This document shows, in pieces, positions 10,116 through 44,449 of a stretch of 64,000 bases of DNA. A program made the position numbers and the translations under genes. Source of the stretch: a virus (taxonomy: Duplodnaviria; Caudoviricetes). The notes beneath the pieces are model-generated. The model was given only the letters and a program-made list of their open reading frames with translations. It did not search any database and had not been told where the DNA came from. The stretch spans positions 304 through 64,303 of IMG/VR virus record IMGVR_UViG_3300047323_000477; one strand, given 5' to 3'. Position 1 is the first letter of the stretch; every line of letters starts with the position of its first letter.

Positions 10116-10243
10116 CCGGTCGGGGTTCGCGTAGCCCCGTTTCTTGATCGAACTATCCCCGTTCCCCACGGCGAAGACCCATACCCATCAGTACGCCCCA
10201 CGCATCCGTAACCCACCGTCACCTATCGCCCTTGGGGGCCCTC

Positions 10244-10504
10244 ATGCTCCGTAAACGCCTCAGACGCCTCCGCGGAAGCGTCAACGACCTCAGCACCATC
10301 GTTTACCTGTCCGTACTCGTCGGCGTCCTATTCCCCGCCGGGGCAGCGTGGCTGCTTCTCGTCCGCCCGACCCGGCCGGCGATTTGGGTGCACATCGCCC
10401 TGGCAGTCGGCGTGGGCGTGGCCATGGCGCTGCTCGCCAACCTGGCCGAATGGATCGTGGTCCGTTGGCGGAAGGCTGCGGCCCGCGCGAAGGCAGTGTC
10501 GTGA
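10244..10504 (+). CDS. Membrane protein (2 TM)
   Basis: Two hydrophobic segments. Confidence 0.65.
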   Translation: MLRKRLRRLRGSVNDLSTIVYLSVLVGVLFPAGAAWLLLVRPTRPAIWVHIALAVGVGVAMALLANLAEWIVVRWRKAAARAKAVS

Positions 10505-10698
10505 GCGCCGACCAGCAGCGGCTCCTCCGCCAACTCGAGGGCTGCCTGCGCCGCGGCCGCGCCAAGACGGACATCTGCTGGCAGCTCACCCAGGCCGGCA
10601 TGACGGCAGACGACATCTGGAAATTCGAGTGCACCGTCCGCCGCCGAATCCGCAAAGAACGCGCAGCCCGGACCCTCAACGCCCAGGAGGCAGCATGA
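10501..10698 (+). CDS. Small hypothetical protein
   Basis: GTGA/ATGA coupling on both sides. Confidence 0.6.
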   Translation: MSADQQRLLRQLEGCLRRGRAKTDICWQLTQAGMTADDIWKFECTVRRRIRKERAARTLNAQEAA

Positions 10699-11186
10699 CC
10701 AAGCAGACCGCCCCGCAGCCCGCCGAAGGCCTGCGCCAGCACCTTGCCGAGGCCATGGCGAAGGAGGCCGGGTCGAAGGCGTTCCGCGAATCCGGCCGCG
10801 AGTGGAACCAGATGCGGTCCGTATGGCTGGCCCACGCCGATGCCGCGGTGAATGCCCTGCACCGGTGGGAGGAGGAAGGGACCCTCGTCCGGCTGTGCAC
10901 CATCCCCGGGTGCTTCCGGCAGCTCAACATTGCCAAGGTCGAGCCCGGGTGGCTGCAGTCGTCCGCGGTCGGCTACATGTGCCCCGACCACGCTGCAGCC
11001 CTCTGGGGAGAGCCGGACGACCCGCGCGACCGCCACGTCCCAACCTGGCAGCGCCGTTTCACGGAGACGCGGCTGTACTGCTCGTGCGGGTGGGACGCAG
11101 GCAAGACCCGGTTCCGCGGCCACGGCACCACCCTGTGGCAGGCCCACGCCCTCGAGGTCCTCGACACCCAGGAGACCGCAGCATGA
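10695..11186 (+). CDS. Cys/His-rich hypothetical protein
   Basis: RBS GGAGG; CTIPGC, CPDH and CSCGW motifs. Confidence 0.72.
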   Translation: MTKQTAPQPAEGLRQHLAEAMAKEAGSKAFRESGREWNQMRSVWLAHADAAVNALHRWEEEGTLVRLCTIPGCFRQLNIAKVEPGWLQSSAVGYMCPDHAAALWGEPDDPRDRHVPTWQRRFTETRLYCSCGWDAGKTRFRGHGTTLWQAHALEVLDTQETAA

Positions 11187-11674
11187 GCGAGCAGGTCGAA
11201 CAGTCCACCGAAGAGCAGCTGCAGCACTGGCACGCCGAGCTCGCCCGCGTCCTGCAGGCCAATAAGGCGTTGCCGTGGCCGACCCTCATCGAGTGGGCGG
11301 AGGAGTCCAACGAGTGGGCTCTGAAGGCCGCGACACGGTCTGGACGGAAACGGCTCGCCGGGCTGGAGCAGCGCGCGAAGGATGCCGAAGCGGCACTGAA
11401 GACGCAGACGGCTGAGCTCGATCGGGTTCGGAAGAATCTCGCGCTGACGCAGCAGGCGGTGTTCGCGTTGACGGACATGGTGGAGAACGCAGCGTATGAC
11501 CGGACGTGGCCGGACGACCGTGAGAGGCCTGCCGACGTGGCGCGCGAGGTCGAGAGGGCTGTTGCCGCTGAGCGGGAGAAGACCCGTGTTGTCGAGGCCC
11601 AGTTCGGTGAGGCGGCCGAGCGGTGGCGTGCCCAGCGGGTGCTGCTGGAGAAGGCGGTGCGCGGTGAGGCGTGA
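11183..11674 (+). CDS. Coiled-coil hypothetical protein
   Basis: RBS AGGAG; ATGA coupling. Confidence 0.7.
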   Translation: MSEQVEQSTEEQLQHWHAELARVLQANKALPWPTLIEWAEESNEWALKAATRSGRKRLAGLEQRAKDAEAALKTQTAELDRVRKNLALTQQAVFALTDMVENAAYDRTWPDDRERPADVAREVERAVAAEREKTRVVEAQFGEAAERWRAQRVLLEKAVRGEA

Positions 11675-12320
11675 GAACTCTGCGGCCGCGCAGGCTGCTG
11701 CCATCCGGGCGGGTGCCCGTCGTGGCCCGTGGCGGCGTCTCCTGGTCCTCCTGGGGGTTCGTACCCCGGGGATGCGTAGGGCGGACTCCCGGGCGTTCCT
11801 GTGGGGCCACGGGGCGGAAGGCGAGGCGGTCACAGCGCGAATGCTGGCCGCGCTCGAGGCCCGAGGGTGGGCGATACGGCACGACCGTCGATTACGCGGC
11901 CGCCGCTTCAACCTCGATCACGTCCTGGTACCCCCGTGCGGGACGGCGGCGGTGGTCCTGGATACGAAGCGTTGGCACCGCGGCCGCACCACCGACCTGG
12001 TGAACGGCCGGGTCCACTGCGGTACGGAGGACCGGCACACGCAGGTCCAGAGGGTTGCCGAGTACGCGCTGCTCGTCGACCAGGCCCTGAAACTGCCGGA
12101 CGTGGCGGTGTGGCCGCTTCTCGTGGTGCACGGGTCACCGGTGGCCGGCGGGCAGCTCGAGGCCCGGGTGAACGGCTGGGATGGTCCTGTGTTCGTGCTG
12201 GGCCCGGAGCTGCTGCTCCCGCGCTTGGCGGGCGCACCGAAGGGCTGGGATCCGCGTCGGGCTCAGGCGGTGGCGGACCGGGTCGATTCGGTGCTTCTGC
12301 CGTACACGGAGGGCGCCTGA
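11664..12320 (+). CDS. NERD-domain nuclease-like protein
   Basis: WGHGAEGEAVTARML...HD...NLDHVLV...VLDTKRW; contains an in-frame TTA codon at 11892. Confidence 0.85.
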   Translation: MRRENSAAAQAAAIRAGARRGPWRRLLVLLGVRTPGMRRADSRAFLWGHGAEGEAVTARMLAALEARGWAIRHDRRLRGRRFNLDHVLVPPCGTAAVVLDTKRWHRGRTTDLVNGRVHCGTEDRHTQVQRVAEYALLVDQALKLPDVAVWPLLVVHGSPVAGGQLEARVNGWDGPVFVLGPELLLPRLAGAPKGWDPRRAQAVADRVDSVLLPYTEGA

Positions 12321-12521
12321 GACATACGGTGGCCTGGCTGGCTATGGGCCCACCAGGCCAGCGGCCCGTTGTCCCTGGGGGGATGACGGGCCGCTTTTGT
12401 GCGTTGTCTGGTGGCCTCGCAGACGGGGGTGCCGCGAGGCCGGGTCCAGTCTGGCAGGGGCTGGCGGGATTGTTCGGCGCGCCATTGGATTCCGATATTC
12501 GAACAGTCGTAGCATCGGTGC

Positions 12522-12623
12522 GTGCCCACGAACGACGCCTATGACTTCCCCCAGGACCTCCTGGACGCTCAGCTCGCCCTCCACGAGACCCGTGCCGCCC
12601 ACGAGCAGCCGGCCGAGGCGTAG
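12522..12623 (+). pseudogene. Short or truncated ORF (33 aa)
   Basis: YDFPQDLLDAQLAL resembles the N-terminus of longer Streptomyces proteins but stops early. Confidence 0.35.
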
Positions 12624-12625
12624 CC

Positions 12626-12955
12626 GTGTCCGACCCATCACAGATCTCTGACCTCGACAAAAACCGGGCTCTGGCTGAATGGCTCGAGTGGCAGCTGCGC
12701 CAGGTCCGGAACCGGATCCGGGAGCTTGAGGTCAAGGAGCAGCAGGAGCAGCGTGCGCGGGAGCGGGCTCGGGCGGAGATGTCGTGGAAGATTCAGCCGC
12801 AGCGGGGTGGGATGGCGGCGATGCTGCACCGCGGGGGCTGCTCGACGTACAGCGAGCAGTTCGGTTTCATCAACCGCGAGGAGGCGATCATCGCGTTGGG
12901 CGAGCCGGATATTGAGTCGTGCCCGATCTGCACCCCGGAGACGGGGCTGACGTAG
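12626..12955 (+). CDS. DUF6233 domain protein
   Basis: LHRGGC...REEAIIALGEPDIESCPICTPETGL. Confidence 0.82.
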   Translation: MSDPSQISDLDKNRALAEWLEWQLRQVRNRIRELEVKEQQEQRARERARAEMSWKIQPQRGGMAAMLHRGGCSTYSEQFGFINREEAIIALGEPDIESCPICTPETGLT

Positions 12956-12957
12956 CA

Positions 12958-12997
12958 GCGCCCCCGCTTGGCCTCTTGGCCGCGGGGGCGTTCTTTG
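12958..12997. terminator. Terminator at the convergence of the two early arms
   Basis: GCGCCCCCGC...GCGGGGGCGT hairpin followed by TCTTT. Confidence 0.7.
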
Positions 12998-13036
12998 TCG
13001 TTGGGGCCCAGCGTGGCATGCGGCACTGACAGCGGC

Positions 13037-13252
13037 TCAGGAGGCGTCTCGGCGCCATCGGCGGATGGCTCGGGCTACCTGGTCACCTATCTGGGCGGGC
13101 GAGCCGGCGGGGCGAACGTCGACCTTCACGCGGGTATCGTTCTCCGCTTCTTCCCATGGGGCGGGGCGAAGTGCTAGTTGCCCGTACGGTCCGTACTCCC
13201 ACCAGTACGGCTTGTCGAACAGCCACACGATGCGGTTGGTGTCGTGGTTCAT
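13037..13252 (-). CDS. Small hypothetical protein
   Basis: ATGA-coupled; C-terminus AQIGDQVARAIRR resembles that of the upstream gene. Confidence 0.6.
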   Translation of the reverse strand: MNHDTNRIVWLFDKPYWWEYGPYGQLALRPAPWEEAENDTRVKVDVRPAGSPAQIGDQVARAIRRWRRDAS

Positions 13253-13620
13253 GCGTCACCGCGGCGGGCGCGACGCACCGCCCGGCCGATCTGCGCGCCA
13301 AGCTCAGTAGCGTCACCACCGGGGTTGACGACGACATCCACAGGTTGCACAACCTCGAGGACGTGCCAGACCAGGTTGCCGTTGGGCGCGAGGACGGTTC
13401 CAACGTGCCAGGTACCGGGAGAGATGGGGTGTCCGGTGCCGGTGACGGTGAACTCGCGGACGATCGAGCAGGACGACGTGGGGGCGTAGGCCCAGAACTC
13501 GACCCTGTCGCCCTGGCGGCACGCGAAGTGCAGGGGGCCTTGGCCGATGGTGAACCTGTGGGTCAGGCCGTCGATGGGGATCTCGTAGCGGTGGATGACG
13601 TCGGGCTGGGAAGGGCTCAT
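13249..13620 (-). CDS. Hypothetical phage protein
   Basis: IHRYEIP...VEFWA...FTVTGTGHPI...HVGT...LVWHV, a conserved phage family pattern. Confidence 0.75.
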   Translation of the reverse strand: MSPSQPDVIHRYEIPIDGLTHRFTIGQGPLHFACRQGDRVEFWAYAPTSSCSIVREFTVTGTGHPISPGTWHVGTVLAPNGNLVWHVLEVVQPVDVVVNPGGDATELGAQIGRAVRRARRGDA

Positions 13621-13698
13621 GCATCCATGCTGGCCCCGGCAGCCTGGTTCGTTGCCCCTGGTCGGGGTGCGGGCCGACGCAGGGGGACGGGCGGTGGT

Positions 13699-14748
13699 TC
13701 AGCCCTGCCAGGTGCCGCGGAGTGCTGCGGTGATGAAGCCCGGCCCGTAGGCGACGGCGACACCGGTGGCCCCGGCCGCTGGGGGTGTGGTGTGGGTGCG
13801 CTCGAGGATCCGCAGCACGCTGACGCCGCCAAGGTTGCCTTCGTCGGCGAGGGTGTCCGTGCTGTGCCGGGTGTCGTGGGCGTCGAGGCCCAACGCGGTG
13901 GCGGTGTCGGTGATGATGCGGGCGCTGCCGGGGTGGATGGCCGCCCAGTCGACGATGCGGGGTCCGAGCCAGTGCAGGAGGTGGGGCAGGACGTCGTCGG
14001 CGGCGGTCAACGCGGCCTTCGTGGAGTCGAAGTGGAAGCCGGTGTGGTCGACGCGCCCGTTGTATCGGGTGAGGCTGCCTGGGAGGACGTGTTCGTACGT
14101 GTCCGCCGGTCCGTCGACGCGGAGGCCTGGGCCGAGGGGTTGGCTGGTGACGAGGACGGCTGCGGCGGAGTCCCCGAACAACGCCTTGTAGATCATGTGC
14201 TCGACGTCGGTGTCCTGGTGGTTGTACACCGCGGAGATTACCTCTGAGGCAACAACGAGGACGGTGGTGCCGGGTCGGGCGGTGACCATGTCGACGGCCC
14301 GGATCAGTCCTTGGGTGCCGCCGGCGCACGCCATGGTGGTGAGGGCGATGCGGGAGACGTTGGGGCGGAGGCCGAGCCGGTCGACGAGGTGGATGTCCAA
14401 ATTGGGGACGGACCAGCCGGTGGAGTGCGTCGTGATGATGGCGTCGACGTCGGTGGGGCGTACTTGGTGGGTGGTGAGGGTGTGGCGGGCTGCTTGCTCG
14501 GCGAGGTCGAGGGCGTCGCCGAACGCGGTGCGGGCCCGTTCTGCGATCCCGGCGGTGCCGGACACGGTGGGGGCGTCGAGGGGGCGGGTGAAGTACCGGG
14601 TGTTCACACCGGTGTTGTTGACGATGCGGAGGATGGCAGGCAGGCGCGGGTGGTCGGGGTGGTGGGTGCGGATGTCTTCGGCGATGTCGCTGGTGTTCAC
14701 CTTGTTGTCGGGGAACACGGTGCTGGGGCGGTTTATGTAGGCGGGCAC
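13699..14748 (-). CDS. Type III polyketide synthase (germicidin/violapyrone synthase- or PhlD-like)
   Basis: Intact catalytic triad Cys (MACAGG), His (AIHPGS), Asn (EGNLGG); ALFGDSAAA and YGPG motifs; RBS GGAGG before the GTG at 14748. Confidence 0.95.
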   Translation of the reverse strand: MPAYINRPSTVFPDNKVNTSDIAEDIRTHHPDHPRLPAILRIVNNTGVNTRYFTRPLDAPTVSGTAGIAERARTAFGDALDLAEQAARHTLTTHQVRPTDVDAIITTHSTGWSVPNLDIHLVDRLGLRPNVSRIALTTMACAGGTQGLIRAVDMVTARPGTTVLVVASEVISAVYNHQDTDVEHMIYKALFGDSAAAVLVTSQPLGPGLRVDGPADTYEHVLPGSLTRYNGRVDHTGFHFDSTKAALTAADDVLPHLLHWLGPRIVDWAAIHPGSARIITDTATALGLDAHDTRHSTDTLADEGNLGGVSVLRILERTHTTPPAAGATGVAVAYGPGFITAALRGTWQG

Positions 14749-14836
14749 GACGTTCCTCCGGCAGGCAGGGTCCAGCTGCGGTGTGGGGGCTGCGCCCAAC
14801 CTACGGCACCGTAGGGCCGGTATTGCCCCTGCTCAG

Positions 14837-14880
14837 GGCATTGCAAGGAACAGACCCCCCGTTCTGTTCTTTGCAATGCC
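14837..14880. promoter_or_regulatory. 18-bp-arm inverted repeat between the regulator and the PKS (operator or terminator)
   Basis: GGCATTGCAAGGAACAGA-N8-TCTGTTCTTTGCAATGCC, one mismatch. Confidence 0.7.
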
Positions 14881-14893
14881 TTGACGTGCCAGG

Positions 14894-15715
14894 TCAGTAG
14901 GCACGGAGCATGTGAGTCCGGATATGGGCGCGTCTCTTCCCGGGATGGAACACGAGAACAATCAGGCGGGCGCCGGGCGCCGTCATCGGCTCCGCGGCGC
15001 ACATCGTGACCCATCCCGGCCCGTCGATGGCGTGGAGAAGGGGGCGTTCGTCACCGTCGGGATGTATGTGCGCACCGCCGGCATCCCAGATCGGCGCACA
15101 CTCCGGGTCGGCCAGGACTTCCTTCTCCAGCTGCTGGAGCGTCTCGTCGTCGGGGCGCGCGGCGAGCGCGGCCCGCAGCTGGGGCAGGACCAACGGCGCC
15201 CAGGAGGTCGCCCAGTCCGTCAGTGTGTTCCGCCCGTCGGGGTCGAAGAGCATCCACCGCATGGTGTTCGTCGGGACACGGCAGCCGGGGAACAGGCGGG
15301 CGAACGGGGCGTTGTACGCGATCAGTTCCCACGACGCGTCCGTCACGTAGGCCATGTGCCGCATTCCGTCGACGGCCTCCTGCCACACCCCGGGGATCTC
15401 TTTCCCGGAGCGGGGGGTGAGCGGGCCGGGCGGGTTACCGATCCCCGCGTACCGGCACAGCGACACCCACTCCTGCTCGTTCAGCGCGAACAGCGTGGCA
15501 ATGTCACGCAGGAGGTCGGCCGGCGGGTTCGGGTAGGACCCGGACTCGAGCCTGCGGTACGTCCCGAGGGTTCGGTGGCACAGCTGGTCGACCTGGTACT
15601 GGGTGAGCCCGGGGGCGCGCCGCCCTTGTCCGGTCGGGCGTTCGAACCCGTGCCCTTCCGGCTCGACGAGGGCACGGCGTTCCCTGAGGAGATCCCGTAG
15701 CGCCTTCTTGTTCAT
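14894..15715 (-). CDS. MmyB-family transcriptional regulator (XRE HTH plus PAS-like ligand-binding domain)
   Basis: LRDLLRERRA...GRRAPGLTQ..V...YRRLESG; AYVTDASWELIAYN...F...NTMRWMLF. Confidence 0.92.
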   Translation of the reverse strand: MNKKALRDLLRERRALVEPEGHGFERPTGQGRRAPGLTQYQVDQLCHRTLGTYRRLESGSYPNPPADLLRDIATLFALNEQEWVSLCRYAGIGNPPGPLTPRSGKEIPGVWQEAVDGMRHMAYVTDASWELIAYNAPFARLFPGCRVPTNTMRWMLFDPDGRNTLTDWATSWAPLVLPQLRAALAARPDDETLQQLEKEVLADPECAPIWDAGGAHIHPDGDERPLLHAIDGPGWVTMCAAEPMTAPGARLIVLVFHPGKRRAHIRTHMLRAY

Positions 15716-16174
15716 CGTGTGAAATCCCCCATGTATAGGTCACGTTGCGCACCACGAACCCTATTTACGTGCATGGTTCTTGGCGATAAAAACCGACAGT
15801 AGAAAACCAACACTTGACCCGCCATGCTCTCTGGTGTGGGGCACTGGCCTGCGGTCCTTCCGGACCGTGAACACAGTGCTACACGCGCAGGATTCTTGAC
15901 TAGACCGCTCCCTGAAAAGGGCCGGTTTACCTCTAGGGCAAGAATTCCTGCATCCCGCCGGAACGGTGGCGGGAAGGAACGGAGGCGTCTCGTATTCCGT
16001 CTTTCAGGGGCGGAGCTTCGCAGCACGAGCGTCCTCTGCACTTCCCCGTTGTTGTTCCTGGGGCCGCCGACTGTGGTCGGTGCCGTCACTTCCGCCATGT
16101 GCGGCCACGGCACCGGCCGCACCCATTTCACGGCCCATCAGACGCCCGCGGTTCCAGCGGGGCGCAGGACGTTC

Positions 16175-16777
16175 TCACTCGCCGGCCTTCGTAGTGGTGG
16201 GCTGCTGCGGCTGGTCGAGGGCTTGGACCGTCGGGCACGGGTAGGGCAGCGGGGTGCCGTAGCTGTCGTGGCAGTGGGCGCAGCTTCCGGGATCGGCATT
16301 CCAGCGCTGGTGCAGTTCCCGCACGCGTTCGATGGCGGCCTCGGCGGTGCGGGCGCGCTTCTCCTCTGCGGTGCGCGCTGCCCGCTCGCTCTCCCGGTCG
16401 GCGAGGACGGCATCCAGGCGCTTCGAGTTGAGTCGCAGGGCTTCGGCGGTGCGGCAGGCCGCCTGCTGCACGCGGTTCCGCTCGGCCTCGGCCTCCTCGG
16501 CACGCTTCCCGTTCTCGATGGCGCGGTCGGCGTACTGCGCGGCCATGCGCACGGCCTGGCCCGGCTCGCTGCTCGCGGCAACGAGGAGCTTCAGCCGCTC
16601 CATCTCTCGGTCCCGGACTTCGGCGAGCTCCTTGGCGATCCAGTCGACCCACTCGTTGATGCGCTGAGTTCCGCCGGGGCCGTCGAGTTCGGCGTCCTGG
16701 AGGCCCATGAGCATGTTGGGGCGGATCGCTGCCGCGTACCGCTCGCGCACGGCGTCGGCTGTCGGCTGGTCGGTCAC
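16175..16777 (-). CDS. Coiled-coil hypothetical protein with C-terminal Zn motif
   Basis: RBS GGAGG; RVRELH...CAHC...YPCPTVQAL. Confidence 0.72.
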   Translation of the reverse strand: MTDQPTADAVRERYAAAIRPNMLMGLQDAELDGPGGTQRINEWVDWIAKELAEVRDREMERLKLLVAASSEPGQAVRMAAQYADRAIENGKRAEEAEAERNRVQQAACRTAEALRLNSKRLDAVLADRESERAARTAEEKRARTAEAAIERVRELHQRWNADPGSCAHCHDSYGTPLPYPCPTVQALDQPQQPTTTKAGE

Positions 16778-16959
16778 TTCTTCCTCCGTGCTGCTGCTCG
16801 CCGGTTGGCCCGGTTGGCGGGGGCCGGTGCTGGTAGGACCTCCACGTCGGCAAGGGCGCCAGGGTCTGCGTCGTAGTGTTCGCCGGACGCTGGGACGAAC
16901 ACGGTCTCCACCCGGGTTATGAGGCGCTCTCCGCGCGGGACGCTGCTCGGTCCGGTCAT
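16774..16959 (-). CDS. Small hypothetical protein
   Basis: Coupled ORF; ends NRANRRAAARRKK. Confidence 0.6.
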   Translation of the reverse strand: MTGPSSVPRGERLITRVETVFVPASGEHYDADPGALADVEVLPAPAPANRANRRAAARRKK

Positions 16960-17342
16960 CGGGTGGTCTCCTCGGGCTTCGGTTCGGCAAGGGCATCGGC
17001 CACGGTGTACCCGCGGTACTGCAGCGTCGGGGCGGCCTCCTTGGCGAGGCGCAGCGCCGTGTCGTGGTCGAAGTGGTGCGCGGCAGTCCACGCCTCCTGC
17101 TCCTTGTCGTGCAGCTCCTGCTCCGCATCGGTGGCCGGCCCTTCGATGTGGCCGCTCCACTCGAAGCCCCACGACCAGGTGCCGTCGGCGCCGAGGAGTT
17201 GGCTGCGCTGGATGACGGCCCACCGGCCCGCGGCGCGGCGTTCGACTTGGATGGTGAAGAGGTCCCAGTCGACGTGGCCTTCGGGGAGGCAGGACACGAG
17301 GTACTTCCACGGCTGGACGGACGGCTCGGGGAGCTCGGTCAT
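16956..17342 (-). CDS. Hypothetical phage protein
   Basis: RBS GAGGAG; ATGA coupling. Confidence 0.72.
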   Translation of the reverse strand: MTELPEPSVQPWKYLVSCLPEGHVDWDLFTIQVERRAAGRWAVIQRSQLLGADGTWSWGFEWSGHIEGPATDAEQELHDKEQEAWTAAHHFDHDTALRLAKEAAPTLQYRGYTVADALAEPKPEETTR

Positions 17343-17752
17343 CGGGTCGTCTCCTCGGGGGTGCCGAGGATCTTCCGGGCCACGGTCAGAGCGGTCTGCC
17401 ACATGCCGTAACCGGGCTCGTTATCCCGGTACGGCGCCAGCCAGGCCAGCGCGTTGGCGGTTTCGTCGAGCCAGTCCGCTACCGGGTCGGCGAGTCCGGC
17501 GAGTCGGCCCTGGATCTGCGGTGCCACGGCGCGCAGGGTGTCGGCCGCCTGCTGGAGTTCAACCGCGGCCGGCCATGTGGTGCGGCGCCGGTCGACGGGT
17601 GCAGGATGGACGGCGGCTCGGACTTCGGCGGCGTGAGCATCGAGGAGGGCGTTGGTCTTCTCCTCGCCCGCCCCGTAGCTCTCGGAGGTCGGGTTCCACT
17701 CGGGCCACATCAGCTCGCTGTACACAGCGTTGCGGGCCGGCTGGTCGCTCAT
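17339..17752 (-). CDS. Hypothetical phage protein
   Basis: RBS GAGGAG; ATGA coupling. Confidence 0.7.
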   Translation of the reverse strand: MSDQPARNAVYSELMWPEWNPTSESYGAGEEKTNALLDAHAAEVRAAVHPAPVDRRRTTWPAAVELQQAADTLRAVAPQIQGRLAGLADPVADWLDETANALAWLAPYRDNEPGYGMWQTALTVARKILGTPEETTR

Positions 17753-18066
17753 CGGGTTGTCTCCTCGGTTGTGGTGGCCTGCTGGGCGATGCCGGCCAGC
17801 CAGTCGGGCCAGGTGTCGACGGGGCCGTGGAAGTGCTGCCCGAGGGCGTGGTTGGTGAGGGTGTCGTCTGCCTTGCGCCAGTGCCCGTCGACGTAGGCGG
17901 CGATGCCGCTTTGGCGCGGGTGGTTCTCGGTGCGCCAGGTGATCGTGACCTTGGCGGGAATGATGAAGCCCTCGCCGTACTGGTTGGGCACATCGGGGTA
18001 GCCGACGGCGGCGAACGTCACGGAGTGACCTATGGCGGTCAGGGTGACGGCGGTGGGGCCGGTCAT
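17749..18066 (-). CDS. Hypothetical phage protein
   Basis: RBS GGAG; ATGA coupling. Confidence 0.7.
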   Translation of the reverse strand: MTGPTAVTLTAIGHSVTFAAVGYPDVPNQYGEGFIIPAKVTITWRTENHPRQSGIAAYVDGHWRKADDTLTNHALGQHFHGPVDTWPDWLAGIAQQATTTEETTR

Positions 18067-18656
18067 GCCGCGCTCCATTCGTCGCCCTCGGCGTCCCGGT
18101 AGACGAGCGTCGGCAGGGTGTACGTCGACCCCGTGTCTGCGATGGCCTTCCGGGCTCGCTCCTCGGACGGGTACTGCTGAACGCGGGTGACGCCGTAGTT
18201 GGTGGTTTGGGTGGCCCACTGGCGATTGCCGCGCCACAGGTACCAGCGGAGCTCGGTGGGCAGGTGACGGAACCAGGCGGCCTCAGTGGCGGACCCCGGA
18301 TACTGGCCGACCATTGTGGCTGCCGGGGCCACGCCAAGTGCCATGCCACATGAGCAGGACACCGCGACGTTCGACTTGTACCCGCACCCGTCAGTGATCG
18401 GTTGGTGGGGGTCGAACGCGGTCGGGTGCTCAGGACACAGGTGGACAGCGAACCGGCCGTAGCAGCGTTCGCTGTACGACAGGGCCTTCGGACGGCGGCC
18501 GCGGGGCGGGAACAGGGGGTCCTTTGTGATGGGAATGTGAGCGGTCGATTTGAGGGCGGTCCACCCGTCGGGCGGGGTGATGTTGTTGGAGCCGATGCCG
18601 TTGGCCTCGCAGTGCGGGGCGTCGCATCGGAACCGGGTCAGAGTCTCCGTGCTCAT
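18063..18656 (-). CDS. Cys-rich hypothetical protein
   Basis: RBS AAGGAGG; CDAPHC, LCPEH and CSCG motifs. Confidence 0.7.
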   Translation of the reverse strand: MSTETLTRFRCDAPHCEANGIGSNNITPPDGWTALKSTAHIPITKDPLFPPRGRRPKALSYSERCYGRFAVHLCPEHPTAFDPHQPITDGCGYKSNVAVSCSCGMALGVAPAATMVGQYPGSATEAAWFRHLPTELRWYLWRGNRQWATQTTNYGVTRVQQYPSEERARKAIADTGSTYTLPTLVYRDAEGDEWSAA

Positions 18657-19297
18657 CGGTTCGCCTCCTTGGCGGATGGATTCGGCAGGCCGGTGATGGT
18701 TGCGATGCTGGAGGCGTCGAGGCTTCCATCGGCAATGAGCGCGTCTGCGAGAGCGATGACGCGGGGCCAGTGACCCCCGAGGCGTCCATCGGCCCGTGAG
18801 CAGACCTGGGTCCAGCCGTCCCACGGGTGGGACAGGAAGCTGAACTCCTGACCGTCCTTCGCGGCGGACTCGACCGCTTTTGCCCGGTCGCTGCGTGCGC
18901 CCCGCTCGATCGACCAGGCTCGTTCGGGTGTCCACGCACCGATCTCGCGAAGCCACCGGTCGGCAGCTCGTTCACCAGCGGCCAGCATGGTGGCGTAGTC
19001 GCTCCACCGGGCGTAGGTGCCGGTGAGAACGGTGTGGAACATGTGCCCCTGATTGCTGGGGGCGAGTTCGGTGGAGTCGACGCCGATCCCGACGACGAGA
19101 GCGGCGACCGCGTGCCCGGCTTCGTGGATAGCTCCGTGCCGTTGGAGAAGGGCACCGTCCTGGAACGGTTCGTAGATGCTGGTCTCGCTGGCCTGTGGGT
19201 GCCATGTCCAGACGCCATCCGTGTTCTCAGTCCATTCGGCGGTGGCGGCACGAATGCTCAACTCGGGCATTGGCTCGCGGGCCTGGTGGTCGGGCAT
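18653..19297 (-). CDS. Stand-alone M41 (FtsH-protease-like) zinc peptidase domain protein
   Basis: AIHEAGHAVAA...MLAAGERA...SD...LADALIADGSL. Confidence 0.75.
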   Translation of the reverse strand: MPDHQAREPMPELSIRAATAEWTENTDGVWTWHPQASETSIYEPFQDGALLQRHGAIHEAGHAVAALVVGIGVDSTELAPSNQGHMFHTVLTGTYARWSDYATMLAAGERAADRWLREIGAWTPERAWSIERGARSDRAKAVESAAKDGQEFSFLSHPWDGWTQVCSRADGRLGGHWPRVIALADALIADGSLDASSIATITGLPNPSAKEANR

Positions 19298-19384
19298 GTG
19301 ACTGCTCCTCGGGAAGGGGGCTCTTTCAGGGTGGCGTGGAATGTGCGCGGTGCTGCCCCCGGTCTGTTGGAGGGTGATGGGTCC

Positions 19385-19415
19385 ACCCTACCTCGAAACC
19401 TATTGCGTACGCCAT
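19385..19415 (-). promoter_or_regulatory. Leftward promoter with 17-bp operator (copy 2)
   Basis: CCTATTGCGTACGCCAT at 19399-19415; minus strand reads TGGCGT-N18-TAGGGT. Confidence 0.55.
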
Positions 19416-37707: not shown

Positions 37708-38193
37708 ATGCCAGCCTCCAGAGCAAAGCAAGCCGAGACCGCAGGCCGCCGCGCCGACCTCATCCGACTGCGCCGCAGCGGCGTCCGATTCGATGACCCG
37801 CTCATCCTCGCCCTCGGGTACAGCAGCTCCGGCGCAGCGCGGAAGGACCTCATCCGCGCCCTCGAGCAGAACCGTGACGAGGAAGCTGCCGAGGTCTCCG
37901 TCTACCGGCAGCAGGAGAACGAGCGGTACGACGTCATGCTCCGCGCCATCTGGGCAGAGGTCGAAGCCGGTGACCTCCGGTCCATCGAGACGGCCCTGAA
38001 GATCTCCGACCGGCGTTCCAAGCTGAACGGGTGGGACGCCCCCGTGCGCACCGAACTGTCCGGCCCCGACGGAGGCGCCGTCCCTCTCGGCAGCGGGTCG
38101 CTGACCGAGCTGAACACCCTCATCAGCCTTGCGGGAGAGACCAGTACCGACGAGCAGGGCAGCCAGGGGCCCACGCGTGACCACGACGGATGA
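37708..38193 (+). CDS. Terminase small subunit
   Basis: HTH N-terminus; RRSKLNGWDAPVRTELSGPDGG; directly upstream of TerL. Confidence 0.8.
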   Translation: MPASRAKQAETAGRRADLIRLRRSGVRFDDPLILALGYSSSGAARKDLIRALEQNRDEEAAEVSVYRQQENERYDVMLRAIWAEVEAGDLRSIETALKISDRRSKLNGWDAPVRTELSGPDGGAVPLGSGSLTELNTLISLAGETSTDEQGSQGPTRDHDG

Positions 38194-39739
38194 CCTCCTC
38201 GAGGACACCCTCCTCGAGCACTACCGGACCCTTCCCGTCGCCGCCCGCAAGCGCATCGCCCAGCAGGCCGGCCCCGACGTGCGCCGCCGACTGGCCTGGG
38301 TGGAACGCCAGATGGCCATGGACCTGTCCCCGGGCGCCCTTGCCGCAGTCCTCACCGAGAACCGGGAGAAGCAGGCCCCGCACCTCGACATGATTGATGA
38401 CGTGTTCCGTCGCATTGCCGCAGGCGAGCGCATGCAGGTGATGATTACCTGCCCGCCGCGGCACGGAAAAAGCCAGAGGGCGTCCCGCTGGGGTCCGCTC
38501 TGGTACCTGCGGCGCAACCCGACCGCCCGCGTCATGCTCGCCTCCTACGGTGCCGAACTCGCCGACGACCACGGCCGATGGGTCCGCGACCAGCTTCGCG
38601 AGCACTCCGACACCCTCGGCGTCCGCCTCGACCCCGGATCCCACGCCGCGAACCGGTTCGACCTCGAAGCACCGCGCGGGTCGTCCGTGCGCGGCGGCAT
38701 GGTCACCGCCGGCGTCGGAGGCTCGCTTACTGGCAAAGGATTTTCGCTCGGTGTGATCGATGATCCTTTTAAAGGCTCCGACGACGCGAACAGCCCAGCC
38801 CAACGCCAACGCGTCTGGGACTGGTACCGGTCCGTCTTCTACACGCGTCGTGCCCCCGGCGCCTCCATCGTCTTGATCAACACCAGGTGGCATGAGCTCG
38901 ACCTGTCCGGACAGATCCTCGCCACCGAACCCGAGAACTGGACCCTCATCGACCTGCCGGCCCTCGCCCTGTCCGCCACCGACCCCCTCGGACGCGAACC
39001 CGGCGAAGCCCTGTGGCCCGCCCAGTACGATGCCGAAGAACTCCACCGCACCAAGAAGGCCGTCGGCGAACGAGTCTGGTGGGCGCTCTACCAACAGCAG
39101 CCCCGCCCCCTCGAAGGCGGCGTGTGGAAGTGGCCCTGGATCACCGAGAACCGCATCGACCCGATCGCGTTCCGGGCCGTCGACCTCTCCCGCGTCGTCG
39201 TCGCCCTCGACCCCGCCGGAGGCGACACCCCAGGACACGACGAATCCGGAATCGTTGCCGCAGGCCGCTCCACCGACGGCCACTACTACGTCCTCGCCGA
39301 CCGCACCGGCAACCACTCCGCCGACGCCCGAGGGCGCGAGACGTGCATCCTCGCCCTTGACCTGCAGGCGGACGCCATCGTCGTGGAGACGAACTACGGC
39401 GGCGACATGGCACGCCAGAACGTCGTCCAGGCATGGGCCGAGCTCGAGCGGCAAGGCCGAACCAAGGGCCAGCCGATGCCCAGGATCGTCGAAGTGACCG
39501 CGAAGAAGGGGAAGCGGCTGCGCGCCGAGCCCATCGCCCAGCTGTACGAAACCGGGCTCGTCCACCACACTGCAGAGTTCCCCGCACTGGAGACACAGAT
39601 GGTCACCTGGGTGCCTGGCCTCGACTCACCCGACCGCATGGACGCCGCCGTCCACGCCCTCACCGAGCTCGCCAACCCTGCCTCCGCGTCCGTGGGTAGC
39701 TCCTCGTACGCCGACCAGAGGCTAACGGGCCGCCGTTGA
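38177..39739 (+). CDS. Terminase large subunit
   Basis: PPRHGKS Walker A; IDDP Walker B; TRWH; ALYQQQP; DPA...DES nuclease; SPDRMDA. Confidence 0.96.
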   Translation: MTTTDDLLEDTLLEHYRTLPVAARKRIAQQAGPDVRRRLAWVERQMAMDLSPGALAAVLTENREKQAPHLDMIDDVFRRIAAGERMQVMITCPPRHGKSQRASRWGPLWYLRRNPTARVMLASYGAELADDHGRWVRDQLREHSDTLGVRLDPGSHAANRFDLEAPRGSSVRGGMVTAGVGGSLTGKGFSLGVIDDPFKGSDDANSPAQRQRVWDWYRSVFYTRRAPGASIVLINTRWHELDLSGQILATEPENWTLIDLPALALSATDPLGREPGEALWPAQYDAEELHRTKKAVGERVWWALYQQQPRPLEGGVWKWPWITENRIDPIAFRAVDLSRVVVALDPAGGDTPGHDESGIVAAGRSTDGHYYVLADRTGNHSADARGRETCILALDLQADAIVVETNYGGDMARQNVVQAWAELERQGRTKGQPMPRIVEVTAKKGKRLRAEPIAQLYETGLVHHTAEFPALETQMVTWVPGLDSPDRMDAAVHALTELANPASASVGSSSYADQRLTGRR

Positions 39740-43396: not shown

Positions 43397-44449
43397 ATGG
43401 AGGCTCTTGAGCTCCTCCTGCGGGACACCAACGACACCGACATGACGGTGTTTGCCCGTTCGATGGACACCCCCGCGAACTACCGGCTCACCCAGGAAGT
43501 TCTGCCCGAGAAGCAGATCCAGGGAGTCCGGTTCCGCACCACGTCCGCGAAGCGACGCGTCAACGCCGCGAAGTTCCGCGCCTACGACGCCCCCACTGCC
43601 ATGGCGAAGCGCCAGGCCGAGCGCGTCGTGAACGAGGGCATGCTGCCCGCCCTGGGCCAGACCCTCCCCGTCTCCGAGATGGACCAGATCCTTCTCGACG
43701 TCGGCCACGGCCTGGACACCCAGCAGTACATCGACCTGCTGTACTCGGACGTCGAGCGGCATGTCGAGTCCATCAAGACCGCCCAGGAACTCGCCGCCGG
43801 CCAGCTCCTGGCCACCGGTTCGGTCAACCTTCCGGGCCTCGGCCTCGACGTCGACTGGAACGTTCCGGCGGCGAACATGCCGACCGCAGCGATCCTGTGG
43901 GACGACCCGGACGCCACCCCGCTGTCCGACGAGCGGGCGTGGATCGACTACCTGATCGACAGTGGGGCGCCCATGCCGCGCGAGGTCATCACCTCCCGCC
44001 GTGCGCGTGCCCTCCTCGCGTCGAACGCCGAGTACCGGGCCGCGTTCTACGGGTCCTCCACGGTCGGAGGAACGCCGACGGCGACGCTGAACCCCGACGA
44101 CGTCAACACCGTGCGCGCCCGCTACGGGCTCCCACCGATCGTCACCTACGACGTCCAGGTGTGGAACGACGACGTCTACCAGCGTGTCCTCCCGGACAAC
44201 AAGTGGATCATGATTCCGGATGTTCCGGCCTCCGAGTGGGCCCAGACCCAGTACGGGGTCACCCGCGAAGCCGCGAAGTTCACCTCCGGCACCAACCCGG
44301 CGCTCACCCGCGAAGAGGCCCCCGGCATCGTCGTCGTCTCCCACGTCGACGACAACCCGGTCCAGATCTACACCCGCGGCGCAGCGATCGGCATGCCCGT
44401 CCTGTACGTCCCGGACATCCACATCTCTGCGACCGTCCTCGGGGCGTGA
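43397..44449 (+). CDS. Major capsid protein (lambda gpE-like family)
   Basis: AAKFRAYDAP...E...TG...W...P..D...PVL; RBS GAGGAG. Confidence 0.9.
   Translation: MEALELLLRDTNDTDMTVFARSMDTPANYRLTQEVLPEKQIQGVRFRTTSAKRRVNAAKFRAYDAPTAMAKRQAERVVNEGMLPALGQTLPVSEMDQILLDVGHGLDTQQYIDLLYSDVERHVESIKTAQELAAGQLLATGSVNLPGLGLDVDWNVPAANMPTAAILWDDPDATPLSDERAWIDYLIDSGAPMPREVITSRRARALLASNAEYRAAFYGSSTVGGTPTATLNPDDVNTVRARYGLPPIVTYDVQVWNDDVYQRVLPDNKWIMIPDVPASEWAQTQYGVTREAAKFTSGTNPALTREEAPGIVVVSHVDDNPVQIYTRGAAIGMPVLYVPDIHISATVLGA

What the first reader, a model, noticed from the sequence alone, without database searches (positions are those of the whole stretch)
13699..15715. Phage-borne type III PKS plus MmyB ligand sensor: candidate small-molecule signalling system
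Seen: an intact type III PKS (Cys-His-Asn) directly downstream of an XRE-HTH/PAS-like MmyB regulator, with typical phage ORFs on both sides. Established: similar two-gene units make alkyl-alpha-pyrones in Streptomyces (violapyrone vioAB; the germicidin synthase product inhibits spore germination), and MmyB ligand domains bind fatty-acid-like molecules. Inference: the prophage makes and senses a diffusible polyketide. It could be a non-peptide analogue of arbitrium controlling lysis, lysogeny or conjugation, or a manipulator of host germination. Biosynthetic genes in phages are rare.
Basis: partly seen in the sequence, partly recalled or inferred. Interest (0 to 1): 0.85.

Follow-up and report, generated by a model that had tools for sequence, protein, structure and literature searches.

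The report
Violapyrone-type pyrone cassette on a phage-plasmid
The two genes are a relative of the already characterised violapyrone pair vioB/vioA (a repressor and a small polyketide synthase that makes alkyl-pyrones), carried as common cargo by a known family of Streptomyces plasmids that are also phages, so the genes are real but largely known and a signalling role remains untested.

Summary
An intact type III PKS (true start GTG 14748, 349 aa; Cys141-His272-Asn305) lies directly downstream of an XRE-HTH/MmyB-type regulator (14894-15715). Both sit in a virus record with a terminase and a major capsid protein.

It is not new. The record is a roughly 71%-complete fragment of a pZL12-like Streptomyces phage-plasmid. 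Phage ZL12 has carried the same annotated pair (pZL12.99/100) since its deposit. The PKS is 70.8% identical to pCQ3.110c, which Huang et al. 2016 report as 95% identical to VioA. VioA is the proven violapyrone (3-methyl-4-hydroxy-6-alkyl-alpha-pyrone) synthase, on a ~85 kb plasmid. Its neighbour vioB acts as a negative regulator.

The pair is present in 26 of 34 plasmids with a related terminase, in 4 of 4 IMG/VR relatives and in 24 of 24 genomic loci. Sixteen of those 24 loci have non-phage flanks, and 12 form one syntenic chromosomal locus.

Best reading (0.8): a self-regulated alkyl-pyrone cassette carried as accessory cargo. The "arbitrium-like" or germination-control idea is neither supported nor excluded (about 0.1). 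The only candidate operator motif occurs solely at the cassette's own two promoters.

Novelty: new member of a known kind.

The parts
13699..14748 (-). Type III polyketide synthase, vioA-like, 349 aa. GTG start, TGA stop. Catalytic residues C141, H272, N305.
   Evidence: ORF. Pfam. PDB matches. Start inferred from homologue lengths and from the RBS and start codon. Triad invariant in 54 of 54 rows. 70.8% identical to pCQ3.110c, the stand-in for VioA.
14749..14759 (-). Ribosome-binding region (GGAGG) directly upstream of the GTG start.
   Evidence: The GGAGG/GGGAG column block is conserved in all 18 aligned loci.
14780..14792 (-). C-rich motif (CCCCCAC core) between the -10-like box and the RBS. 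It is conserved in phage-plasmid and chromosomal loci alike. Function unknown.
   Evidence: Alignment A1, invariant or nearly invariant C columns. Coordinates.
14798..14803 (-). -10-like hexamer TAGGTT (TAnGTT in relatives).
   Evidence: Invariant T/TG columns in A1. Coordinates. The generic sigma-70 scan did not call it, so the promoter assignment is inference.
14824..14840 (-). Imperfect palindrome TGCCCTGAGCAGGGGCA, ending 20 nt upstream of the -10-like box. Candidate operator. Two relatives have perfect palindromes at this position: CCCTGATCAGGG in pZL12 and TGCCCTGATCAGGGCA in L006.
   Evidence: It is the only site in the window at up to 3 mismatches.
14837..14880 (-). 18-bp-stem hairpin just after the regulator's stop codon. 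Terminator-like, but with no T tract.
   Evidence: ViennaRNA fold of the intergenic region: -44.9 kcal/mol, z -4.3 against mononucleotide shuffles. Hairpins of different sequence occur at the same place in L002-L005, L031 and L008. They are absent in loci with short spacers.
14894..15715 (-). XRE-HTH + MmyB-like ligand-binding-domain regulator, vioB-like, 273 aa.
   Evidence: Pfam. Fold match to 3pxp. 64.3% identical to pCQ4.19c, the stand-in for VioB. 82-87% identical to the regulators of the nearest phage-plasmids.
15716..15975 (-). Conserved, locally AT-rich upstream region of the regulator, read as promoter and leader. It contains TAAATAGGGT (15758-15767), a T-rich block (15779-15792), a small hairpin (15852-15867) and a second GCCCT-N3-CAGGG site (15910-15922).
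   Evidence: Alignment A2 of 19 loci, with 13 invariant and 15 nearly invariant columns across phage-plasmid and chromosomal loci. Coordinates.
38129..39739 (+). Context: large terminase subunit of the phage-plasmid.
   Evidence: Terminase_6N and 6C. 89% identity to pZL12.67c by tblastx. 95.1% identity to CP108852.
43397..44449 (+). Context: major capsid protein.
   Evidence: Phage_cap_E, 88.1 bits. Collinear with pZL12.63c.

Best explanation
The two genes are a self-contained vioB/vioA-type cassette carried as accessory cargo by a pZL12-like Streptomyces phage-plasmid.

The PKS most likely takes fatty-acid-derived acyl or beta-ketoacyl starters (as CoA or ACP thioesters), extends them with methylmalonyl- or ethylmalonyl-CoA, and lactonises the product. 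This would give 3-alkyl-4-hydroxy-6-alkyl-alpha-pyrones (violapyrones, also called presulficidins, which are close chemical relatives of germicidins).

The upstream MmyB-type regulator most likely represses the PKS promoter until a lipid-like ligand or a host developmental cue relieves it. Each gene has its own conserved promoter-like region.

Shown here: the homology, the intact catalytic residues, the conserved gene pairing, the phage-plasmid context, and the fact that the pair moves as a unit.

Taken from papers on the orthologue: the product, and repression by VioB.

Inferred: that this copy makes the same product class, that the palindrome is the operator, and that the benefit is to the carrier cell (a mildly antibacterial or bioactive lipid under developmental control) rather than a phage-specific decision circuit.
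For: 1. Homology to the characterised pair. The PKS is 70.8% identical over 349 columns to pCQ3.110c (WP_012840496.1). Huang et al. give that protein as 95% identical to VioA. The regulator is 64.3% identical to pCQ4.19c (WP_015060958.1), given as 95% identical to VioB (PMC4924298, Table 1 in section 6).

2. Experiments on the orthologue (PMC4924298). Deleting vioA abolishes violapyrone B. Deleting vioB raises it about eightfold. Flanking ORFs are dispensable. The cluster sits on a ~85 kb circular plasmid. Cpz6, only 53% identical to VioA, makes the same compound.

3. Tree of 54 PKS rows (quick IQ-TREE). The window falls in a 12-row clade (SH-aLRT 99) with pZL12 and pCQ3/pCQ4.

4. Catalytic residues. 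The Cys-His-Asn triad is invariant in 54 of 54 rows. The glycine aligned with pCQ3.110c position 231 is kept in 33 of 34 locus rows, including the window.

5. Pairing. The regulator lies directly upstream on the same strand in 24 of 24 genome loci and 4 of 4 IMG/VR loci. It does so in 32 of the 40 plasmid records listed, by comparison with the coordinates. Identities of the two proteins to the window co-vary (Pearson 0.88, Spearman 0.72, n = 33).

6. Phage-plasmid context. The structural module is collinear with pZL12. TerL and MCP are present. 26 of 34 plasmids with a related TerL carry the PKS.

7. Regulator family. MLTR_LBD scores 66 bits and the fold matches 3pxp. MltR was crystallised with myristic acid (PMC3406030, abstract).

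8. Enzymology. [quoted passage not shown]
Against: - No product, expression or binding data exist for this copy. At 71% identity, chain length or extender choice may differ.
- The best solved-structure match is THN synthase (1u0m, 149.7 bits), marginally ahead of germicidin synthase (3v7i, 143.6 bits). Sequence alone therefore does not fix the product.
- In the regulator tree, the pCQ3/pCQ4 regulators (the stand-ins for VioB) group with pSLE1's, not with the window's. "Repressor" is therefore transferred across a deeper split than for the PKS. MmyB itself is described as an activator (my recollection, not from a call).
- Chal_sti_synt_C scores 25.1 bits, below Pfam's cut-off of 27.
- Retention in 26 of 34 related elements, down to 41% PKS identity, hints at a benefit to the element itself. 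"Mere cargo" does not explain that.
- The record is a 71% fragment, so targets on the missing ~26 kb cannot be excluded.
Confidence: 0.8

Rival explanations
1. First reader's model. The pyrone is a diffusible, element-encoded signal, and the MmyB-type regulator senses it. The circuit sets a phage-plasmid decision (plasmid state versus lytic growth or transfer) or manipulates host spore germination, in the manner of arbitrium or a germicidin.
For: - The cassette is kept in 26 of 34 plasmids with a related TerL, and across PKS identities from 85% down to 41%.
- Phage-plasmid lineages (pSLE1, L033, L034/L035, L036) branch deeper than the chromosomal group in the PKS tree.
- The regulator has a ligand-binding domain of a family crystallised with a fatty acid (PMC3406030 abstract).
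- In the orthologue, expression is tied to the developmental regulator WblA (PMC4924298, section 9 passage). This element also encodes its own WhiB-like protein.
- From my own recollection, not from any call: alkyl-pyrones act as quorum signals in Photorhabdus (PpyS/PluR), and germicidins inhibit germination.
Against: - The same pair is conserved in non-phage chromosomal settings: 16 of 24 loci, 12 of them one syntenic locus among transporter, kinase, TetR and SDR genes.
- 8 of 34 related elements lack the PKS.
- The candidate operator (17-mer at up to 3 mismatches; GCCCT-N3-CAGGG exact) is found only at the cassette's own two promoters in the 64 kb, so no phage target is seen. That pattern was derived from those two sites and is not an independent test.
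- No ligand is known for VioB.
- The two violapyrone papers do not contain the word 'phage', and the 2018 paper does not contain 'signal' or 'germination'.
Confidence: 0.1
2. The enzyme makes a different polyketide from violapyrones, for example a malonyl-CoA-primed aromatic such as THN/flaviolin pigment or an alkylresorcinol. This is what the old 'RppA-like' or 'PhlD' annotations imply.
For: - The pZL12.100 note reads 'similar to RppA'.
- The top PDB match is THN synthase 1u0m.
- Plasmid records name the gene PhlD.
- The best NCBIfam match is DpgA.
Against: - The NCBIfam DpgA score of 101.8 bits is far below its cut-off of 425.
- The strain that yielded VioA has a separate THNS orthologue (72% identical to S. 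coelicolor THNS), and deleting it did not affect violapyrone (PMC4924298, section 6).
- The window's PKS groups with the stand-ins for VioA at SH-aLRT 99.
Confidence: 0.07
3. The pyrones serve as sulfate carriers (presulficidins) for a host or element sulfotransferase pathway, as Cpz6 products do in caprazamycin biosynthesis.
For: Violapyrone B is the same compound as presulficidin A. Cpz6 is the nearest characterised relative of VioA (PMC4924298 background and discussion; PMC5898002).
Against: - No gene other than the pair is conserved next to it across contexts.
- Pfam scans of 8 flanking proteins each in L021 and L006, plus the pair itself in each scan, showed no sulfotransferase.
- Huang et al. 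themselves argue for a different role, because the vio cluster has only two genes.
Confidence: 0.03

Closest known systems
vioA/vioB violapyrone cluster of Streptomyces somaliensis SCSIO ZH66 (Huang et al. 2016, PMC4924298; Hou et al. 2018, PMC5898002)
   Same: - The same two-gene layout: an XRE-family regulator upstream of a ~350-aa type III PKS on a ~85-90 kb plasmid.
- The PKS lies in the same well-supported clade as the 95%-identical stand-ins for VioA.
- It is 70.8% identical (PKS) and 64.3% identical (regulator) to those stand-ins.
   Different: - A different element: its terminase is 66-78% identical to those of pCQ3/pCQ4.
- The regulator belongs to a different branch from VioB's stand-ins.
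- No chemistry has been done on this copy.
- The papers call the replicon a plasmid and never a phage.
pZL12.99 / pZL12.100 of Streptomyces plasmid-phage pZL12 (phage ZL12, GQ919031), and the PKS of pSLE1 (PMC4487206)
   Same: - The same pair, annotated 'transcriptional regulator' plus 'type III polyketide synthase': 77% and 75% identity.
- The structural module is collinear with pZL12.
- The pSLE1 paper notes the PKS in both plasmids and that its neighbours do not form a cluster.
   Different: - The window's record lacks the ~26 kb of pZL12 that holds ParAB, the integrase and the methylases. It is most likely a fragment, with estimated completeness 71.
- pZL12.100 is annotated with a longer N-terminus that overlaps pZL12.99.
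Germicidin synthase Gcs (3v7i) and Cpz6 (presulficidin synthase)
   Same: - Bacterial type III PKSs that make 4-hydroxy-alpha-pyrones from fatty-acid-derived starters.
- Gcs matches at 143.6 bits.
- VioA is placed with Cpz6, DpyA and Gcs in Hou et al.'s tree.
   Different: - A distant relationship: the Gcs match splits into two stretches, with a long insertion in Gcs.
- Cpz6 sits inside a large antibiotic cluster.
MmyB / MltR family regulators (Pfam MLTR_LBD; structure 3pxp; PMC3406030)
   Same: An XRE HTH followed by a PAS-like ligand-binding domain.
   Different: - Only 18-19% identity to 3pxp, and TM 0.29 for the whole chain.
- No sequence-level PDB hit.
- The orthologue acts genetically as a repressor, whereas MmyB is described as an activator (my recollection).
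Phage small-molecule or peptide communication (arbitrium AimP/AimR/AimX) and pyrone quorum sensing (PpyS/PluR). Both are recalled, not retrieved.
   Same: Only the general concept: a producer gene next to a ligand-sensing regulator on a mobile element, and an alkyl-pyrone as a possible signal.
   Different: - There is no homology.
- No downstream lysis-lysogeny effector has been identified.
- The cassette also lives in chromosomes outside any phage.

Membership tests
Type III polyketide synthase (chalcone-synthase superfamily) | Thiolase-fold KS with N- and C-terminal chalcone/stilbene synthase domains, in a stand-alone protein of about 350-400 aa | tested here: met
   Chal_sti_synt_N scores 77.9 bits. 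The C-terminal domain scores 25.1 bits, just under the cut-off of 27. End-to-end alignment to 1u0m covers residues 20-365 at 149.7 bits. The protein is 349 aa.
Type III polyketide synthase (chalcone-synthase superfamily) | Cys-His-Asn catalytic triad | tested here: met
   C141, H272 and N305 are invariant in 54 of 54 aligned rows. They align with the Cys, His and Asn motifs of 1u0m. The residue numbers of 1u0m are recalled, not taken from a call.
Type III polyketide synthase (chalcone-synthase superfamily) | Homodimer; ACP-independent iterative condensation | not testable with these tools
   No complex prediction or assay was run.
vioAB violapyrone cassette | PKS orthologous to VioA | tested here: met
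   70.8% identity to pCQ3.110c, which the paper gives as 95% identical to VioA. Same 12-row clade at SH-aLRT 99, by the quick method.
vioAB violapyrone cassette | XRE-family regulator immediately upstream on the same strand, homologous to VioB | tested here: met
   The gap is 145 bp on the same strand. 64.3% identity to pCQ4.19c, which is 95% identical to VioB. However, the regulator tree places pCQ3/4's regulators on another branch, with pSLE1.
vioAB violapyrone cassette | Produces 3-methyl-4-hydroxy-6-alkyl-alpha-pyrones; the regulator represses production | not testable with these tools
   Known only for the S. somaliensis cluster (PMC4924298).
MmyB-like transcription regulators (MLTR) | N-terminal XRE-type HTH plus C-terminal MLTR ligand-binding domain | tested here: met
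   HTH_31 scores 28.9 bits (cut-off 27) and MLTR_LBD 66 bits (cut-off 26.3). The only significant fold match is 3pxp, E 2.9e-7 over 266 columns.
MmyB-like transcription regulators (MLTR) | Binds a lipid-like ligand | not testable with these tools
   Only the 3pxp-myristate precedent exists (PMC3406030 abstract).
pZL12-like Streptomyces phage-plasmids | Tailed-phage structural and packaging module collinear with pZL12 | tested here: met
   tblastx collinearity of genome 38-64 kb with pZL12 57.5-31.1 kb. TerL and MCP by Pfam.
pZL12-like Streptomyces phage-plasmids | Plasmid maintenance genes (ParA/ParB, replication locus) | tested here: inconclusive
   There is no tblastx match to pZL12 ParAB (8475-10276) or its integrase. 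The record is linear with estimated completeness 71, and its two ends border exactly the pZL12 segment that is missing.
Phage communication systems (arbitrium-like) | Signal producer, cognate receptor, and a controlled lysis-lysogeny effector; confined to phages | tested here: not met
   No further copy of the candidate operator occurs in the 64 kb. The cassette is also conserved in non-phage chromosomal loci, 16 of 24. Receptor-ligand pairing is untested.

The most novel reading that the evidence does not exclude
The violapyrone-type pyrone is a diffusible, germicidin-like signal encoded by the element itself. A whole family of Streptomyces phage-plasmids would use it, through the MmyB-type sensor and in step with Wbl-controlled development. 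It would couple their plasmid-versus-lytic or transfer decisions, or the germination of carrier and neighbouring spores, to population state. That would be a first polyketide-based phage communication or host-manipulation system. The chromosomal copies would then be domesticated or donor versions.
Probability: 0.1. Interest if true: 0.85.

Novelty: new member of a known kind. Interest (0 to 1): 0.33.

Why it matters
As an annotation it is ordinary. It is another copy of a two-gene cluster whose product and regulator were worked out in 2016-2018, and which was already annotated in phage ZL12.

The modest added value is the link between two literatures. The papers I could read call the violapyrone cluster "plasmid-situated". 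The replicons concerned are phage-plasmids with a terminase and capsid genes, and the cassette is one of their most persistent accessory modules (26 of 34).

That gives a genetically tractable and chemically defined system: a known compound, known knock-outs, and pZL12 as a model. It could be used to ask what a biosynthetic gene does for a temperate phage-plasmid, whether as weapon, signal or developmental effector.

If the signalling reading were true it would be a new class of phage communication. Nothing here shows that it is.

Tried and rejected
Searches and scans that gave nothing useful:
- Megablast of window 8000-22000 against the phage collection found no match.
- A sequence search of the regulator against the PDB found no hit at E <= 0.01. 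The fold search was needed instead.
- NCBIfam matched no equivalog for either protein. The best score, DpgA at 101.8 bits, is far below its cut-off of 425.
- Rfam on 12500-17500 gave two sub-threshold matches (20.9 and 20.7 bits), which I treat as chance.
- The generic sigma-70 and terminator scan of 13400-16400 found 0 promoters and one terminator-like site, on the + strand inside the regulator gene. The promoter elements I name therefore rest on conservation only.

Ideas considered and rejected:
- An upstream ORF, 15712-16131 (-), whose TGA overlaps the regulator's ATG. I rejected it because the stretch is AT-rich, aligns as non-coding blocks with indels across loci, and did not pass the GC3 filter.
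- The hairpin after the regulator as a family-wide feature. It is present only in the nearest clade, pZL12 and L008, and absent where the spacer is short.
- A motif shared by both promoters. GCCCT-N3-CAGGG occurs at both. It was derived from those two sites, and it is not kept in L002 or pZL12's regulator upstream region. I regard it as weak.

On the missing terminal repeat: no terminal repeat or circular overlap of the contig was found.

Expression: no RNA holder is listed for this stretch.

Tools not available or not used:
- Zhong et al. 2010 on pZL12 (PMC2897331) is not held. Anything I say about pZL12's biology beyond its GenBank annotation is recollection.
- Complex prediction, the second structure job and the protein-atlas search were not used.

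Supplements are closed. Table S3 of PMC5898002 (the 21 genomes with vioAB) and Table S9 of PMC10023795 (which plasmid prophages hold T3PKS) may already list members of this family. I could not see them.

Literature searches behind "not in print":
- 'type III polyketide synthase' + 'MmyB': 0 papers.
- 'violapyrone' + 'phage': 6 papers, seen as a listing only. None is about phage carriage, judging by title and abstract start.
- 'phage-plasmid' + 'Streptomyces' + 'polyketide synthase': 6 papers matched, 5 were listed, and I read passages of one (PMC10023795).

Limits of the counts:
- The PP and CHR labels in the trees rest on tblastx of 10-kb flanks or on a terminase hit. L033 (CP109578) was labelled PP from its 92-kb size alone.
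- The 20 outgroup rows were my choice among the 150 listed representatives.
- Both trees used the 'quick' method. No AU test was run.
- "8 of 34 lack the PKS" means they are absent from the 58 records with tblastn E <= 1e-40. A remote or broken copy is not excluded.


Full report
**What is there**

On the minus strand, the ORF listing gives a 366-aa ORF (13699-14799, TTG start) and a 273-aa ORF (14894-15715, ATG start).

The first ORF is a type III PKS.
- Pfam Chal_sti_synt_N scores 77.9 bits, FAE1_CUT1_RppA 53 bits and ACP_syn_III 40.2 bits. The C-terminal chalcone-synthase domain scores 25.1 bits, just under its cut-off of 27.
- It aligns end to end with solved bacterial type III PKSs. S. 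coelicolor THN synthase 1u0m scores 149.7 bits, germicidin synthase 3v7i 143.6 bits, and M. tuberculosis Pks11 and PKS18 score 108-116 bits.
- The catalytic Cys, His and Asn are present as C141, H272 and N305 in the corrected numbering. They are invariant in 54 of 54 aligned relatives.
- The true start is almost certainly GTG at 14748, preceded by GGAGG. Homologues are 346-350 aa and cover 95% of the long ORF. The TTG at 14799 lies inside a conserved -10-like TAGGTT.

The second ORF is an XRE-HTH plus MmyB-type regulator.
- HTH_31 scores 28.9 bits and MLTR_LBD 66 bits.
- No PDB entry matches it by sequence.
- An AlphaFold model built on 25 sequences has mean pLDDT 77.3. Its only significant fold match is 3pxp, the MmyB-like MltR of Chloroflexus (E 2.9e-7, 266 columns). 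The whole-chain TM-score is only 0.29.

**What the window is**

The window is all but 303 bases of a single 64,303-bp record. The genome tool describes it as a linear virus record with estimated completeness 71. A near-identical stretch is held by rhizosphere metagenome runs.

It encodes the following:
- a large terminase and a major capsid protein E;
- a 1577-aa protein collinear with pZL12.51c;
- a LysM/SLT protein.

From about 38 kb to its end it is collinear, gene for gene, with the structural module of Streptomyces plasmid-phage pZL12 (phage ZL12, GQ919031).

There is no match to the pZL12 segment from roughly 5.4 kb to 31 kb. That segment holds ParAB, the methylases, the integrase and the lysis-side genes. 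The two ends of the record abut exactly that segment. With 64.3 kb against about 90 kb, this fits the 71% completeness estimate.

The element is therefore a fragment of a pZL12-like phage-plasmid, not an integrated prophage. No host chromosomal flank is present.

ORFs next to the pair are small. Where they match anything, they match PHROG families of unknown function (phrog_3848, phrog_19953, phrog_38277). An acetyltransferase and a sigma factor lie further out.

**The pair is already annotated in a phage and in many plasmids**

In the phage collection, only phage ZL12 holds a relative.
- pZL12.100 is annotated "type III polyketide synthase" (77.2% identity).
- pZL12.99, annotated "transcriptional regulator", lies just upstream (75.4% identity).

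In the plasmid collection:
- 205 records match the PKS at E <= 1e-5, and 58 match at E <= 1e-40.
- 31 of those 58 are Streptomyces or Kitasatospora replicons of 84-103 kb.
- I compared the coordinates by hand. In 32 of the 40 records listed, the regulator lies within about 0.6 kb upstream on the same strand. In 4 more it lies 0.9-1.2 kb upstream. In the remaining 4, no adjacent regulator appears among the 60 of 113 regulator hits that were listed.

With the window's terminase as probe, 34 Streptomyces or Kitasatospora plasmids have a relative at 53% identity or more. 26 of these 34 are also in the PKS list, and 8 are not.

In IMG/VR, 4 contigs carry the PKS (33.8, 90.6, 95.7 and 92.6 kb). All 4 have the regulator upstream. 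One has both genes in pieces.

The protein search shows the same picture. Most of the 120 best clusters come from contigs of about 85-100 kb, and a minority from chromosomes of several Mb.

**It is the violapyrone cluster**

A literature search led to Huang et al. 2016 (PMC4924298). I read the outline, the find passages, and sections 6 and 11.

In Streptomyces somaliensis SCSIO ZH66:
- It lies on a circular plasmid of about 85 kb.
- Deleting vioA abolishes violapyrone B.
- Deleting vioB raises violapyrone B about eightfold and yields four further violapyrones.
- Deleting the flanking ORFs has no effect.

VioA is 95% identical to pCQ3.110c (WP_012840496.1), and VioB is 95% identical to pCQ4.19c (WP_015060958.1). 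I fetched both stand-ins.
- The window's PKS is 70.8% identical to pCQ3.110c.
- The window's regulator is 64.3% identical to pCQ4.19c.
- pCQ3 and pCQ4 carry relatives of the window's terminase, at 65.8% and 77.9% identity.

Hou et al. 2018 (PMC5898002, passages only) add three points:
- 21 further genomes hold vioAB loci, "most of them ... in a linear plasmid".
- VioA groups with Cpz6, DpyA and Gcs.

Cpz6 is only 53% identical to VioA, yet makes the same compound (presulficidin A, which is violapyrone B). This makes the same product class likely at 71% identity.

Neither violapyrone paper contains the word "phage". In the other direction:
- The pSLE1 paper notes the PKS in pSLE1 and pZL12 without linking it to violapyrones.
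- Sharma et al. [quoted passage not shown]

The pieces are therefore in print, but not joined in anything I could search.

**How the cassette is distributed and moves**

A scan of one genome per species returned 24 loci. All 24 have the regulator directly upstream on the same strand.

- In 8 loci, the 10-kb flanks also match the window or pZL12. These are phage-plasmid contexts.
- In the other 16, only the cassette matches.
- 12 of those 16 share flanks with one another, forming a syntenic chromosomal locus on contigs of 53 kb to 2 Mb. In L021 the neighbours are an MFS transporter, a DUF4032/kinase protein, a TetR regulator, an SDR and an acyltransferase.
- L006 lies near the end of an 8.5-Mb chromosome, among an acyl-CoA ligase, a PucR regulator, an alpha-galactosidase and a helicase.

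The PKS tree has 54 rows: the window, 33 loci and 20 outgroup representatives that I chose from the 150 listed. It used the quick IQ-TREE method with SH-aLRT support.
- The window sits in a 12-row clade (99) with pZL12, pCQ3/pCQ4 and the nearest phage-plasmids, plus the chromosomal L006/L007.
- That clade lies within a 16-row clade (97) made of 13 phage-plasmid rows and 3 chromosomal rows.
- The syntenic chromosomal group branches next to it, unresolved.
- More divergent phage-plasmid copies (pSLE1, L033, L034/L035 and the Kitasatospora plasmid L036) branch deeper.
- The root is not established, so donor and recipient cannot be named.

The regulator tree (34 rows) has the same main clades, with one exception. 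The pCQ3/pCQ4 regulators group with pSLE1's, which suggests recombination inside the cassette. pCQ4 also has a 942-bp insert with two small ORFs between the two genes.

Identities of the two proteins to the window co-vary (Pearson 0.88, Spearman 0.72, n = 33). The pair therefore behaves as one mobile unit, with its own upstream region.

**Non-coding anatomy**

Upstream of the PKS (14749-14893), the alignment of 18 loci keeps the following:
- a TAnGTT box (14798-14803);
- a C-rich CCCCCAC motif (14780-14792);
- the RBS.

In the phage-plasmid clade there is also a palindrome 20 nt upstream of the box. It is TGCCCTGAGCAGGGGCA at 14824-14840. The perfect versions CCCTGATCAGGG and TGCCCTGATCAGGGCA occur in pZL12 and L006. 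Its position suits a repressor that occludes the -35 region. That reading is inference.

A strong hairpin follows the regulator's stop codon (14837-14880; -44.9 kcal/mol, z -4.3). The nearest relatives have hairpins of different sequence at the same place. Loci with short spacers have none.

Upstream of the regulator, about 260 nt are conserved in blocks across phage-plasmid and chromosomal loci alike. There are 13 invariant columns in 19 sequences. The region includes an AT-rich stretch that is unusual for this 66-72% G+C DNA.

The 17-mer has no second site in the window at up to 3 mismatches. The relaxed pattern GCCCT-N3-CAGGG has exactly two sites, one before each gene (expected 0.29; 5 of 100 shuffles reach 2). 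That pattern was derived from these two sites, so the only real information is that no third site exists in the 64 kb.

**Mechanism and role**

The best-supported reading is a self-regulated alkyl-pyrone cassette.
- The PKS makes violapyrone- or germicidin-type 4-hydroxy-alpha-pyrones from fatty-acid-derived starters.
- The MmyB-type protein holds the PKS promoter down until a lipid-like ligand or a developmental cue relieves it.
- In S. somaliensis, loss of the host regulator WblA lowers vioB transcription and raises vioA transcription, with no direct WblA binding seen.

The biological role is open. Violapyrones are weak antibacterials; the best anti-MRSA value reported is 25 ug/mL. The authors suggest their role differs from that of Cpz6's sulfate carriers.

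- The cassette persists in the phage-plasmid family (26 of 34) over deep divergence.
- The regulator has a ligand-binding domain.
- Expression is tied to host development.

Against it:
- The pair is equally conserved in ordinary chromosomal loci.
- It is absent from 8 of 34 relatives.
- No operator-like site lies outside the cassette.

I put the cargo reading at 0.8, the signalling reading at 0.1, a different product at 0.07 and a sulfate-carrier role at 0.03.

**Verdict**

Novelty is a new member of a known kind. The residual interest lies in the link, apparently not yet explicit in print, between the violapyrone cluster and the pZL12 phage-plasmid family, which makes the role of a phage-borne biosynthetic gene directly testable.

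Noticed in passing
window 3711-3911 (+) (G000:C1:4014-4214): The element encodes a WhiB-like protein (Pfam Whib, 54.3 bits, over the cut-off). Its neighbourhood matches the pZL12.2c region by tblastx. This is notable because the orthologous vio cluster responds to the host's WblA (PMC4924298).
   Followed up: partly
window 15716-15975 (-), and alignment A2: About 260 nt upstream of the regulator are conserved in blocks between phage-plasmid and chromosomal loci. They include an AT-rich stretch in otherwise 66-72% G+C DNA. No Rfam family matches. I read the region as promoter and leader, but a small RNA or a binding platform is not excluded.
   Followed up: partly
window 14780-14792 (-), and alignment A1: A C-rich CCCCCAC motif lies between the -10-like box and the RBS of the PKS gene. 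It is kept across loci whose PKSs are only about 60-68% identical. pZL12 lacks it. Function unknown.
   Followed up: no
L029 (pCQ4) 2571-3512; L028/L030 (pCQ3): pCQ4 has a 942-bp insert with two small annotated ORFs between the regulator and the PKS. The pCQ3/pCQ4 regulators group with pSLE1's, while their PKSs group with pZL12's. This suggests recombination inside the cassette.
   Followed up: partly
Plasmid records NC_013449, NC_019307, CP032230, CP108353, CP134214, CP108377 and CP109524: In several family members the terminase match is split into two pieces, with an HNH or LAGLIDADG homing-endonuclease gene annotated under or within it. This points to an intein or intron-like insertion in terL. 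The window's terL is uninterrupted.
   Followed up: no
P0123: One representative protein of 4818 aa matches the PKS in 12 separate stretches (25% identity, 412 bits). It is apparently a giant protein, or a mis-called one, with a dozen type III PKS-like repeats.
   Followed up: no
L040 (IMG/VR contig of 92,592 bases) and plasmid CP042280 (also 92,592 bases): Both cassette genes are in several frames here: the PKS in 3 pieces and the regulator in 2. This is either decay of the cassette or indel errors in that assembly.
   Followed up: no
window 9450-10115 (+): An ECF/sigma-70-like sigma factor gene (phrog_351, E 2e-9), next to small phage ORFs. pZL12 also annotates a sigma factor, pZL12.7c.
   Followed up: no
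window ends (1 and 64000) compared with pZL12 5.4-31.1 kb: The record's two ends border the pZL12 segment that carries ParAB, the methylases, the integrase and a glycerophosphodiesterase, and none of these matches the window. This fits a 71%-complete fragment, but a genuinely smaller element cannot be excluded.
   Followed up: partly
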